64,000 nt of DNA from a bacterium. Lineage in GTDB: Bacteria; Patescibacteriota; Saccharimonadia; CAILAD01; GCA-016700035. The position numbers and the translations under genes were made by a program. Numbering within the stretch: position 1 is the stretch's first letter; every line of letters starts with the position of its first letter. Of this stretch, positions 13,642 to 15,405 are shown piece after piece. Below the pieces are notes generated by a model that did not search any database, had not been told where the DNA came from, and saw only the letters and a list, made by a program, of their open reading frames with translations. The DNA lies in assembly GCA_016700035.1 (NCBI GenBank), contig CP064998.1, forward strand, positions 59,325 through 123,324. The letters are read 5' to 3'.

Positions 13642-15405
13642 ATGAATGATGTTGAGGAAGTCAAGCAACGGCTGGATATTGTAGAAGTAGTCGCAGGATA
13701 TGTTGAGCTAAAAAAAGCTGGCAAGGATTATCGTGGTATTTCGCCTTTTCGTTCCGAGAAAACACCCAGCTTTTTTGTAAGCCCAGATAAGCAGATTTGG
13801 CATGATTTTGGGGCTAATGAGGGTGGAGATGTGATTAGTTTTGTTATGAGGGCAGAAGGATTGAGTTTTCCTGAGGCCTTGGAGATGTTGGCAGCTCGTG
13901 CGGGTGTGGAACTTAAGCCTCGTAGTCAGGGCATGGGTAGCGAAAAGAAGGGCCGTCTTTTTGCGGTAGTGGAGCTAGCTACAAGGTACTACCATTATCA
14001 ACTTTCGCGATCTGATTTAGCATTGGTATATTTAAAAGAAACACGAGCTTTAAAGCCAGCAACCATTAAGGCTTTTCGATTGGGCTATGCGCCATCAGGC
14101 TGGACCAGCTTTACGGAATATGCCACCAAGCAGGGATTTAGTTTAGATGAGCTAGTTAAGGCTGGATTGAGCGCTAAGAGTAGTCGTTCGCGTGGTGGTT
14201 ACGATGTTTTTCGTGATCGAGTGATGTTTCCAGTTTTTGATGCACAGGCCCGTCCAGTCGGTTTCTCGGGCAGAATACTGGAGGCTGACCAGAAAACGGC
14301 AAAATATGTTAATACTTCAGACACGCCAATTTATCATAAATCAAGGGTGTTATACGGCTTAGCTCAGGCGAAAGAGGCAATTCGTGATCAAGATACGGTG
14401 ATAGTGGTTGAAGGTAATGTAGATGTGGTAATCTTGTGGCAGTTTGGTCAAAAAAATGTGGTTGCAGCTAGTGGGACGGCTCTTACTATCGATCAGGTTA
14501 AAGCTCTGGGGCGACTGGCTTCCACCATCAAGCTATGTTTTGATCAGGATAAGGCAGGTTTACAGGCAACGTTGCGAGCTATTGAGTTAGGGCAGGAAGC
14601 TGGTGTGCGGATTGAAGTTATATCGATTGAGGGGGCTAAAGACCCCGATGAGCTTTTAGTAAAAAGTCCAGAAAAATGGAAAAAATATGTTGATAATTCG
14701 CAGTATGCAATTGATTACTTGTTTGATTATGCGGTCAAAACAATAGGTATTGATGCTGGTCCTGCAAAGAAATCTACTACAAAGTTTCTGATTCCAGTTT
14801 TGCGTAAAATTCATGATCGCATTGAATTAGAGCATTACATAACTCGGCTCAGCCAATTAGTGCAGGTTGATAATGGCGTTATAAAACAGTTAGTTGAGCA
14901 AGAAAAATCTCCAAAAAGTGCGAACACAAAAGTAGCACAAGAGCCTGAAATTACTGCTAAAAAAACTACCACGAAACGCCTTACACGAGGTGCCCGTCTC
15001 GAAGAAATGTTTCTGGAGCTACTTATTGCATACCCTGCTACGCGAATGGCGTTAGAAGACTTAGAGTTAGATGATATCTCACATGATAATAAAAAGCTTT
15101 TTGAATATTTAGCAAAACATCCACGAGTGGGGGAATCTGGCATCGCTAAAGCCTTGCCAGATGTAGGGGATCGTGTTAAAATGCTGGGGTTACGGGGTAG
15201 CCATGAATACTCGGAAATGACCGAGCACGAGAGAGGGCTCGAAGCCTTTACCCAAGTCCATAATTTACTAAAACATACCTATGTACAAAAAAAACAACAA
15301 CTCCAGCGTGAGATTGCCCAAGCTGAAGCTCAGGGTGATGTGGAGGTCGCTGCAAAAAAATTACACCAATACCAGTCTATTATGAAGCAAATGAGCGAAC
15401 TATAG
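13642..15405 (+). CDS. dnaG: DNA primase DnaG (zinc-ribbon ligands all substituted)
   Basis: ZBD-like EKTPSF, the TOPRIM core ([13 protein letters not shown] ... DQDKAG) and a C-terminal helicase-interaction region are present. TATAAT lies 7 nt upstream of the ATG. Confidence 0.9.
   Translation: [587 protein letters not shown]

What the first reader, a model, noticed from the sequence alone, without database searches (positions are those of the whole stretch)
13720..13860. DnaG primase whose zinc-ribbon has lost all four metal ligands
The N-terminal zinc-binding domain region aligns well to canonical DnaG. [42 protein letters not shown] matches [42 protein letters not shown]. However, the CHC2 ligands Cys-x2-His ... 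Cys-x2-Cys are replaced by Ser-x2-Arg ... Asp-x2-Ala. The rest of the domain, including EKTPSF and the hydrophobic core, is retained. The TOPRIM catalytic core is intact. The zinc ribbon normally contributes to template recognition and initiation specificity, so this is a notable natural variant of an essential enzyme.
Basis: seen in the sequence. Interest (0 to 1): 0.5.

Follow-up and report, generated by a model that had tools for sequence, protein, structure and literature searches.

The report
Zinc-free zinc ribbon in DnaG primase
The replicative primase of this Saccharibacteria genome has replaced all four zinc-binding residues of its DNA-recognition domain with Ser/Arg/Asp/Ala while keeping the domain strongly conserved, and the same replacement recurs across large branches of the ultra-small CPR bacteria, so it is a natural metal-ligand-free version of a site described as highly conserved.

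Summary
ORF 13642-15405 (+) is a full-length DnaG sitting directly upstream of rpoD. HMMER alignments to solved zinc-binding domains put S34, R37, D55 and A58 at the Cys-His-Cys-Cys positions. Residues 1-95 contain no Cys and a single His, so no other alignment register can restore a site.

It is not an assembly error. Among 401 unique ZBD cores collected here, 258 share the pattern Ser / anything / Asp-or-Cys / Ser-Thr-Ala. They come from most Saccharimonadia (including Nanosynbacter and Nanogingivalaceae) and from a Parcubacteria/Paceibacteria group. Some Saccharimonadales, Kazan, Shapirobacteria, Buchananbacteria and Kerfeldbacteria keep CHCC. The trees indicate at least two independent losses.

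The ligand-free ZBD is the most conserved part of the protein: pN is 0.004-0.05, against 0.15-0.26 in the polymerase domain. AlphaFold places it 0.9-1.0 Å from the zinc-bound 1D0Q fold. The catalytic motifs are intact. Other Cys4 zinc sites in the window (Fpg, PilB, PilD) are intact too.

Best reading: a working primase whose zinc cross-link has been replaced by a Ser/Asp-centred polar network. Metal absence itself is inferred, not shown. I found no published report. This is a new variant of a known enzyme.

The parts
13642..15405 (+). dnaG, replicative DNA primase, 587 aa plus stop codon
   Evidence: TIGR01391 scores 400.8 bits against a cut-off of 283.6. Pfam finds ZBD, DNAG_N, Toprim and DnaB_bind. 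2AU3 matches at E=7.7e-57. AF2 mean pLDDT is 89.9 and 91.2.
13642..13926 (+). N-terminal zinc-ribbon-type domain (ZBD, residues 1-95) without metal ligands
   Evidence: PF01807 matches residues 3-92 at 102 bits. 1D0Q matches by sequence at E=4.7e-25. The model superposes on 1d0q_A at rmsd 0.9-1.0 Å over 89 columns. There are 0 Cys and 1 His. pN is 0.004-0.05 versus 0.15-0.26 in the RPD.
13741..13743 (+). S34 (TCG), at the position of zinc ligand 1 (Cys)
   Evidence: Alignments. Ser in 258/258 ligand-free cores.
13750..13752 (+). R37 (CGT), at the position of zinc ligand 2 (His)
   Evidence: Alignments. This position takes 10 different residues among ligand-free cores. It is Arg throughout the query's subclade.
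13804..13806 (+). D55 (GAT), at the position of zinc ligand 3 (Cys). It directly follows I52-W53-H54. I52/W53 correspond to the initiation-specificity residues I58/F59 of G. stearothermophilus primase.
   Evidence: Alignments. Only Asp (205) or Cys (53) occurs here in ligand-free cores. The specificity residues are taken from PMC8928506.
13813..13815 (+). A58 (GCT), at the position of zinc ligand 4 (Cys)
   Evidence: Alignments. Counts among ligand-free cores are S 190, T 48, A 18, D 2.
13978..14931 (+). RNA polymerase domain (residues about 113-430), including TOPRIM at about 14392-14664, with catalytic motifs intact
   Evidence: [27 protein letters not shown] and KDPDE align with the same motifs of Aquifex, B. 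subtilis and P. aeruginosa DnaG. R191, R193, K221, Y222, N224, E257, G258, D261, D301, D303 and D334 are invariant in 89 and in 80 homologues. Foldseek TM is 0.81-0.88 to solved RPDs.
14974..15402 (+). C-terminal helical domain (residues about 445-587), the presumed helicase-binding domain
   Evidence: All-helical with pLDDT of 94 or more. Function is inferred from position only. The Pfam DnaB_bind hit lies upstream at residues 357-410.
15450..16571 (+). rpoD (primary sigma-70 factor), the conserved downstream partner of dnaG
   Evidence: Pfam Sigma70 regions r1_1, r1_2, r2, r3 and r4. dnaG-rpoD synteny holds in all 12 related contigs inspected.

Best explanation
This is the organism's working replicative primase. 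Its N-terminal domain keeps the zinc-ribbon fold and its job, but no longer uses a Cys3His zinc site. That job is to present the template and set initiation specificity for the polymerase domain. The four ligands have been replaced by small polar or charged residues. Ser at position 1 is invariant. Position 3 is Asp, or Cys in apparent intermediates. Position 4 is Ser, Thr or Ala. Position 2 is free to vary. The proposed mechanism is inferred, not shown: the Asp55 carboxylate occupies roughly the place of the metal and accepts hydrogen bonds from Ser34, from the position-4 hydroxyl where there is one, and from the knuckle backbone amides. In the query's own subclade, Arg37 may add a salt bridge. 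These interactions would tie the two knuckles together without metal. Shown here: the substitutions, their clade-wide fixation, strong purifying selection on the domain, intact catalytic motifs, and conserved operon context. Inferred: absence of metal, the hydrogen-bond geometry, and retained primase specificity. The state arose at least twice in CPR bacteria: once or twice within Saccharimonadia, and once in a Paceibacteria-like group. Both lineages converged on the same residues. That points to a constrained structural solution rather than decay.
For: Identity and ligand replacement.
Fixation across lineages: about 100 close homologues carry S-[KRH]-D-[STAD]. All 80 genome loci carry S-x-D-[SA]. 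In the P0267 search, all but 2 of the 122 aligned sequences carry S-x-[CD]-[ST].
Pooled counts from 258 ligand-free cores: position 1 is Ser in 100%; position 3 is only D or C; position 4 is S/T/A in all but 2 cores (2 Asp); position 2 takes 10 different residues.
Functional constraint: the ZBD is the most conserved domain, with 71.7% mean pairwise identity versus 56-59% for RPD/TOPRIM. pN is 0.004-0.05 versus 0.15-0.26 while pS is saturated.
Fold retention (prediction only): ZBD pLDDT is 82-91 with a mixed MSA and 82-94 with a ligand-free-only MSA. Rmsd to zinc-bound 1D0Q is 0.9-1.0 Å.
Catalytic residues are invariant.
dnaG-rpoD synteny is conserved.
Not a genome-wide zinc or Cys purge: the Fpg zinc finger, PilB and PilD keep their paired CxxC motifs.
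Independent origins: the Paceibacteria-type ligand-free clade groups with a CHCC sister at 90-97% bootstrap. Saccharimonadia including CHCC members are monophyletic at 99-100%. 108/108 relatives of a CHCC Patescibacteria primase keep CHCC, including ones named Kazan, Shapirobacteria, Buchananbacteria and Kerfeldbacteria.
From my own knowledge, not checked here: the E. coli adenylate kinase lid uses His/Ser/Asp/Thr where Gram-positive enzymes use Cys4-Zn.
Against: No metal measurement or coordinates exist. AlphaFold was trained on zinc-bound ribbons and cannot judge stability without metal. I could not extract side-chain distances from the models. In phage T7 primase the zinc motif is required for template-directed synthesis (Mendelman et al. 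1994, as cited in PMC6163395), so loss of the ligands might be expected to be damaging. The query's own subclade has Ala at position 4 and Gly at 57, which leaves only Ser34, Arg37 and Asp55 to build a network. The Lys/Arg-Asp salt bridge is not general, because position 2 is T/S/G/N/A in other clades. Only 64 kb of the genome was examined for a back-up primase.
Confidence: 0.65

Rival explanations
1. The domain still binds a metal, but through a new, harder ligand set: the Asp55 carboxylate, Ser hydroxyls, water or backbone, and possibly His54. The metal would be Mg2+, Mn2+, Ca2+ or Fe2+, or weakly bound Zn2+. On this reading the site was remodelled, not abolished.
For: Asp at position 3 and Ser at position 1 are as strictly conserved as true ligands. 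Asp is a known ligand alternative in the adenylate kinase Cys-X2-Cys-X16-Cys-X2-Cys/Asp zinc motif (bioRxiv 10.1101/840603). H54 is conserved in Saccharimonadia.
Against: One carboxylate plus one or two hydroxyls is a poor zinc site. H54 is also present in CHCC relatives, where it is not a ligand, and it is Tyr or Phe in 101 of 258 ligand-free cores. Position 2 is unconstrained. 53 cores have Cys rather than Asp at position 3. The query has Ala at position 4.
Confidence: 0.15
2. The domain is kept for something other than sequence-specific template reading, for example regulating the polymerase domain in trans or protein-protein contacts. Initiation specificity would then be relaxed or changed, or part of priming is done by another enzyme encoded elsewhere in the genome.
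For: In the T7/Twinkle branch, loss of the zinc cysteines goes with loss of primase function: metazoan TWINKLE lacks the cysteines (PMC5737085). Ligand 3 sits directly beside the residues that set initiation specificity in Firmicutes primases (PMC8928506). Only 64 kb of the genome was inspected.
Against: Unlike TWINKLE, all polymerase and TOPRIM catalytic residues are invariant. The specificity-position residues I52/W53 and the surrounding strand are unchanged between CHCC and ligand-free Saccharimonadia. The ZBD evolves more slowly than the catalytic domain. No AEP/PrimPol or other Toprim primase is present in the window.
Confidence: 0.17
3. Sequencing or assembly artefact, or a decaying pseudogene.
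For: None found.
Against: The frame is intact over 587 aa. The identical protein is also held in the Logan collection of assemblies. Four separate codons differ. The pattern is shared by 258 distinct sequences. Purifying selection is strong.
Confidence: 0.01

Closest known systems
Canonical bacterial DnaG primase (E. coli, G. stearothermophilus 1D0Q, Aquifex 2AU3)
   Same: Three-domain architecture. ZBD fold, with 50% identity and rmsd 0.9-1.0 Å to 1D0Q. EKTPSF and GGD motifs. TOPRIM/RPD catalytic residues. dnaG-rpoD operon.
   Different: The Cys-His-Cys-Cys zinc ligands, described in reviews as highly conserved (PMC6163395, PMC8928506), are all replaced: S34, R37, D55, A58.
Metazoan TWINKLE (T7 gp4-like helicase with a degenerate primase module)
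   Same: A DnaG/T7-type primase module that has naturally lost the zinc-coordinating cysteines (PMC5737085). It appears as a distant structural match.
   Different: TWINKLE also lost the RPD catalytic residues and primase activity, and priming passed to POLRMT. Here the catalytic residues are invariant and the ligand-free ZBD is the most conserved domain.
Zinc-independent (C-) forms of zinc-ribbon ribosomal proteins
   Same: Zinc-ribbon proteins that exist in natural Cys-containing and Cys-free versions, both functional (PMC5912738).
   Different: Those are usually paralogue pairs switched by zinc availability. Here there is a single essential gene, and the change is fixed clade-wide, with no CHCC paralogue seen in the window.
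Adenylate kinase lid domain: Cys4-Zn in Gram-positives versus a polar network in E. coli
   Same: A structural zinc knuckle pair (Cys-X2-Cys-X16-Cys-X2-Cys/Asp; bioRxiv 10.1101/840603). From my own knowledge, not checked here, E. coli replaces it with His126/Ser129/Asp146/Thr149 hydrogen bonds. That is the same kind of residues (Ser, Asp, Thr/Ser) at equivalent ligand positions, including Asp at position 3 and Thr/Ser at position 4.
   Different: Unrelated protein and function. The resemblance is a mechanistic analogy, not homology.

Membership tests
Bacterial DnaG primase (TIGR01391) | Whole-protein match to the equivalog-domain model above the curated cut-off | tested here: met
   400.8 bits against a cut-off of 283.6, covering residues 4-406.
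Bacterial DnaG primase (TIGR01391) | TOPRIM acidic residues (EGxxD, DxD, DPD) and the RPD basic/KYxN motifs | tested here: met
   E257/G258/D261, D301/D303, D334/D336, R191/R193 and K221/Y222/N224 align to the motifs of solved DnaGs. All except D336 are invariant in the homologue alignments; D336 is 90% or more conserved.
Bacterial DnaG primase (TIGR01391) | N-terminal CHC2 zinc site (Cys-x2-His ... Cys-x2-Cys) | tested here: not met
   S34, R37, D55 and A58 occupy the four positions. Residues 1-95 contain no Cys and one His.
Bacterial DnaG primase (TIGR01391) | Helicase (DnaB)-interaction region | tested here: met
   Pfam DnaB_bind scores 26.5 bits against a cut-off of 20.6, at residues 357-410. 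A confident helical C-terminal domain spans residues 445-587.
Bacterial DnaG primase (TIGR01391) | Conserved chromosomal context (dnaG-rpoD) | tested here: met
   rpoD lies at 15450-16571. The same order is seen in all 12 related contigs inspected.
Bacterial DnaG primase (TIGR01391) | Template-dependent RNA primer synthesis | not testable with these tools
   Needs a biochemical assay.
CHC2 zinc-ribbon domain (Pfam PF01807) | Sequence and fold match to the domain | tested here: met
   102.2 bits against a cut-off of 24.9. The model superposes on 1d0q_A at rmsd 0.9-1.0 Å with TM 0.84.
CHC2 zinc-ribbon domain (Pfam PF01807) | Bound zinc ion | not testable with these tools
   The ligands are absent, so zinc binding is unlikely, but metal content was not measured.
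Naturally metal-free derivatives of zinc ribbons (C- ribosomal proteins, AK-lid type) | Ligands replaced by polar residues while the protein stays under purifying selection | tested here: met
Naturally metal-free derivatives of zinc ribbons (C- ribosomal proteins, AK-lid type) | Hydrogen-bond or salt-bridge network physically replacing the metal | not testable with these tools
An experimental structure is needed.
Degenerate primase module of TWINKLE type | Loss of RPD catalytic residues together with the zinc ligands | tested here: not met
   The catalytic residues are invariant.

The most novel reading that the evidence does not exclude
An essential replisome enzyme has been converted from a zinc metalloprotein into a metal-free protein at least twice, independently, in the CPR/Patescibacteria radiation. 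Both conversions arrived at the same residue solution: Ser at ligand 1, Asp at ligand 3, Ser/Thr at ligand 4. One-Cys forms (S-x-C-S/T) survive as evolutionary intermediates. On this reading zinc is dispensable for template recognition by DnaG-type primases. The convergence would point to selection specific to these ultra-small symbionts, such as zinc scarcity or the oxidation sensitivity of a Zn-thiolate site in an indispensable enzyme.
Probability: 0.5. Interest if true: 0.7.

Novelty: new variant of a known kind. Interest (0 to 1): 0.58.

Why it matters
Reviews describe the DnaG zinc site as highly conserved, and the precise role of zinc in template recognition as unresolved (PMC6163395, PMC8928506). 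These lineages are a natural experiment on that question. Hundreds of primases keep the domain under strong constraint but lack the ligands. One-Cys forms look like evolutionary intermediates. CHCC relatives sit close by for comparison. Cultivated Saccharibacteria of the Nanosynbacter type appear to carry the variant, so the question of what the zinc is for can be tested directly by metal analysis, structure determination, specificity assays and back-mutation. The variant also bears on annotation: a ZBD hit does not imply zinc binding. It bears on zinc-quota estimates for CPR bacteria. And it bears on antibacterial strategies that target the ZBD.

Tried and rejected
1. Taxonomic placement from RNA genes in the window. 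Rfam at gathering thresholds and ARAGORN found nothing in 64 kb. Placement rests on homologue names instead.

2. Lys/Arg37-Asp55 salt bridge as the general zinc substitute. Rejected as general, because position 2 is T/S/G/N/A/Q/V in many ligand-free clades. It remains possible for the query's own R-D-G-A subclade.

3. Genome-wide zinc or cysteine economy. Rejected for this window. Cys makes up 0.70% of ORF residues, and paired CxxC motifs persist in Fpg, PilB and PilD; a family-4-type UDG also keeps two CxxC motifs (metal not established).

4. Ser codon family (TCN versus AGY) at ligand 1 as a marker of independent Cys-to-Ser events. Inconclusive, because both families occur within otherwise coherent clades.

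5. Single versus multiple losses inside Saccharimonadia. NJ bootstraps conflict. RpoD favours one loss (62%). DnaG without the ZBD, and the concatenation, favour the CHCC clade grouping with the STDS clade (36-51% and 72-92%). This is left unresolved. Only the separation between Saccharimonadia and the Paceibacteria-like group is well supported.

6. Side-chain geometry from the AF2 models. Coordinates are not exposed, so the hydrogen-bond network could not be measured.

7. Literature. No searchable paper held both DnaG and a CPR term or linked CPR primases to zinc, and none of the titles or passages I read describes a ligand-free DnaG ZBD.

8. Promoter and terminator scan around dnaG-rpoD. Counts were no higher than in shuffled sequence.
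Full report
**What is at the locus.** The ORF at 13642-15405 (+) encodes a 587-aa protein. It scores 400.8 bits on the NCBIfam DnaG model TIGR01391, against a cut-off of 283.6. It carries the full Pfam set: Zn_ribbon_DnaG at residues 3-92, DNAG_N, Toprim_2/4 and DnaB_bind. Its best solved relatives are Aquifex DnaG 2AU3 (E=7.7e-57, covering ZBD plus RPD), several RPD structures, and the B. stearothermophilus zinc-binding domain 1D0Q (E=4.7e-25). The primary sigma factor rpoD follows at 15450-16571. This dnaG-rpoD pair recurs in all 12 related contigs I fetched. 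Homologue names and genome record titles place the window in Candidatus Saccharibacteria / Saccharimonadales.

**The observation.** In the HMMER alignment to 2AU3, the ligand Cys/His/Cys/Cys columns are occupied by S34, R37, D55 and A58. A MAFFT alignment with E. coli, Aquifex and B. stearothermophilus N-termini gives the same register. The codons are TCG 13741-13743, CGT 13750-13752, GAT 13804-13806 and GCT 13813-13815. Residues 1-95 contain no cysteine and a single histidine, H54, so no shifted register can recreate a site. The same protein is also held in the Logan collection of assemblies (P0001). Error and pseudogene readings are excluded.

**How widespread it is.**
- Every listed full-length homologue above about 46% identity is ligand-free, about 100 sequences with the pattern S-[KRH]-D-[STAD]. 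Homologues at 42-45% identity, one of them named Candidatus Saccharimonadales, keep CHCC.
- A scan of species-representative genomes returned 80 Saccharibacteria loci, including Nanosynbacter (L071) and Nanogingivalaceae (L049). All carry S-x-D-[SA], with T/S/G/A/N/R at position 2. That scan was biased by the search peptide DKQIWHDF.
- An exhaustive HMMER search with the ZBD alone returned, in its top 150 cluster representatives, 25 ligand-free forms and 4 one-Cys forms such as S-K-C-S. It also returned a shifted C-x3-C variant that keeps four ligands.
- I then searched with one of the one-Cys proteins, P0267, which NCBI names Candidatus Parcubacteria. Of the 122 sequences I aligned (the new hits plus five earlier ones), all but 2 carry S-x-C-[ST] or S-x-D-[ST]. 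Their source names include Kaiserbacteria, Paceibacterota/Pacebacteria and Parcubacteria GW2011_GWD2_42_14.
- By contrast, 108 of 108 relatives of a CHCC primase from a "Patescibacteria group bacterium" keep CHCC. These include proteins named Kazan, Shapirobacteria, Buchananbacteria and Kerfeldbacteria.

Pooling everything gives 401 unique ZBD cores, of which 258 are ligand-free and 143 are CHC-type. In the ligand-free set:
- Position 1 is Ser in 258/258.
- Position 2 takes ten different residues.
- Position 3 is only Asp (205) or Cys (53).
- Position 4 is Ser (190), Thr (48), Ala (18) or Asp (2).
- The knuckle Gly57 is Ser in 235.

No core has Cys at position 1 with the other ligands missing.

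**Is the domain still working?**
- Within the ligand-free set, the ZBD is the most conserved part of the protein. Mean pairwise identity is 71.7%, against 56-59% for RPD-N/TOPRIM and 37-43% for the C-terminal parts. The ratio to the RPD is no lower than in CHCC relatives.
- Against the closest relatives, synonymous sites are saturated (pS 0.65-0.86). Non-synonymous divergence in the ZBD is 0.004-0.05, against 0.15-0.26 in the RPD.
- The strand carrying I52/W53 is unchanged between CHCC and ligand-free Saccharimonadia. These residues are the counterparts of the initiation-specificity residues I58/F59 of G. stearothermophilus primase (PMC8928506).
- The RPD/TOPRIM catalytic residues R191, R193, K221, Y222, N224, E257, D261, D301, D303 and D334 are invariant in the homologue alignments and align with the motifs of solved DnaGs.
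- AlphaFold2 models are confident. Mean pLDDT is 89.9 with a mixed MSA. It is 91.2 with an MSA containing only ligand-free sequences, with ZBD blocks at 82-94. Both models place the ZBD 0.9-1.0 Å rmsd (89 columns, TM 0.84) from zinc-bound 1D0Q. This shows the sequence is compatible with the fold. It does not show stability without metal.

**Not a general trait of the genome.** I scanned the window's main predicted ORFs (90 aa or longer, non-overlapping set) against Pfam; three of them (62049-62453, 63387-63998 and minus-strand 16598-17107) were not scanned. The window encodes ordinary housekeeping genes: PolA, HolA, SSB, RecA, FtsK, PNPase, RNase J and ribosomal proteins. It also encodes a type IV pilus cluster. 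Paired CxxC motifs survive in the Fpg zinc finger (20246-21124), in PilB (57629-59422) and in the prepilin peptidase (62533-63333). A UDG-superfamily protein, probably family 4, at 26954-27556 also keeps two CxxC motifs. No second primase of any type is present in these 64 kb. The rest of the genome could not be examined.

- Saccharimonadia, including their CHCC members, are monophyletic at 99-100% in a concatenation of DnaG without the ZBD plus RpoD.
- The Paceibacteria-like ligand-free clade groups with a CHCC sister (L089) at 90-97%.
- Together with the CHCC state of other CPR classes, this requires at least two independent losses.
- Inside Saccharimonadia, the three-way relationship between the query clade, the CHCC clade and the STDS/SSDS clade is unresolved. 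RpoD favours a single loss (62%). The concatenation favours CHCC grouping with STDS (72-92%).
- Ser codon families at ligand 1 are mixed within clades and do not settle the matter.
- One member of the query's larger clade keeps His at position 2 with the ancestral CAT codon (L091, SHDT).
- Many Paceibacteria-type proteins keep Cys at position 3. This suggests the order CHCC, then S-x-C-S/T, then S-x-D-S/T.
- Cys to Asp needs two nucleotide changes, yet Asp was reached in both lineages and nothing else is seen at that position. That argues for selection of a specific structural solution.

**Mechanism.** The most likely reading (confidence 0.65) is a functional primase whose zinc cross-link has been replaced by a polar network centred on Asp55 and Ser34. 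Arg37 may help in the query's R-D-G-A subclade. The substitutions, their fixation and the selective constraint are shown. Metal absence and the bonding geometry are inferred.

The rivals are:
- A remodelled site for another metal (0.15).
- A domain retained for non-recognition roles, with altered specificity or a back-up primase (0.17).
- An artefact (0.01).

**Comparison with what is known.** This is a DnaG by every test except the zinc ligands. Reviews call those ligands highly conserved (PMC6163395; PMC8928506).
- The nearest natural precedent in the same superfamily is metazoan TWINKLE. It lost the cysteines but also lost the catalytic residues and primase activity (PMC5737085). That is not the case here.
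- Functionally, it resembles the zinc-independent versions of zinc-ribbon ribosomal proteins (PMC5912738).
The Gram-positive motif is confirmed in bioRxiv 10.1101/840603.
- No paper in the searchable library held both DnaG and a CPR term or linked CPR primases to zinc, and nothing I read in it describes a ligand-free DnaG ZBD. Subscription journals are largely not covered by that library.

**Verdict.** It turns out to be a clade-scale, apparently convergent feature of major CPR lineages. It is a new variant of a known enzyme rather than a new kind of system. Interest is moderate to high, because it makes the long-unresolved role of zinc in DnaG directly testable.

Noticed in passing
window 44439-48431 and 48516-54863 (+): Two very large adjacent ORFs (1330 and 2115 aa; 15 and 31 Cys) lie just upstream of the type IV pilus genes. 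They have essentially no Pfam match: only a weak SurA_N-like hit at the N-terminus of the second. They may be surface or host-interaction proteins.
   Followed up: partly
window 1-64000: No tRNA, rRNA or any Rfam family at gathering thresholds in 64 kb (cmscan and ARAGORN both returned zero).
   Followed up: yes
window 13628-13641: A perfect TATAAT hexamer ends about 6-7 nt before the dnaG ATG, and there is no obvious Shine-Dalgarno sequence. The mRNA may be leaderless or have a very short leader. The consensus promoter scan did not flag it, because there is no -35 match.
   Followed up: partly
window 20246-21124, 26954-27556, 57629-59422, 62533-63333: Fpg (zf-FPG_IleRS), a UDG-superfamily glycosylase (probably family 4), PilB/GspE and the prepilin peptidase each keep two CxxC motifs. 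The organism has therefore not generally abandoned Cys-based metal sites.
   Followed up: yes
P0267, P0210, P0248 and about 55 proteins; loci L085:6001-7710, L086:2146-3888: Paceibacteria/Parcubacteria-type DnaGs keep a single Cys at ligand position 3 (S-x-C-S/T). They look like intermediates on the way to S-x-D-S/T.
   Followed up: partly
P0144, P0159, P0164, P0172, P0205 and others; P0488: A separate DnaG variant keeps four ligands but has shifted spacing in the second knuckle: C-F-G-[AS]-C or C-F-G-Q-C instead of C-F-G-C.
   Followed up: no
P0122 (194 aa) and P0123 (1028 aa): These proteins have two CHCC zinc-ribbon DnaG-type domains in tandem or spaced about 450 residues apart. That is an unusual architecture.
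   Followed up: no
window 39840-40280 (+): SSB ends in ...NLDDIPF, the canonical acidic tail. In E. coli this tail contacts the DnaG C-terminal domain and chi (PMC3632105, title and abstract seen).
   Followed up: no
window 16598-17107 (-): A 169-aa minus-strand ORF lies between rpoD and polA and overlaps the polA start at 17005. Related loci also carry a small minus-strand gene in this gap (L090, L091, L092). It was not scanned against Pfam.
   Followed up: no
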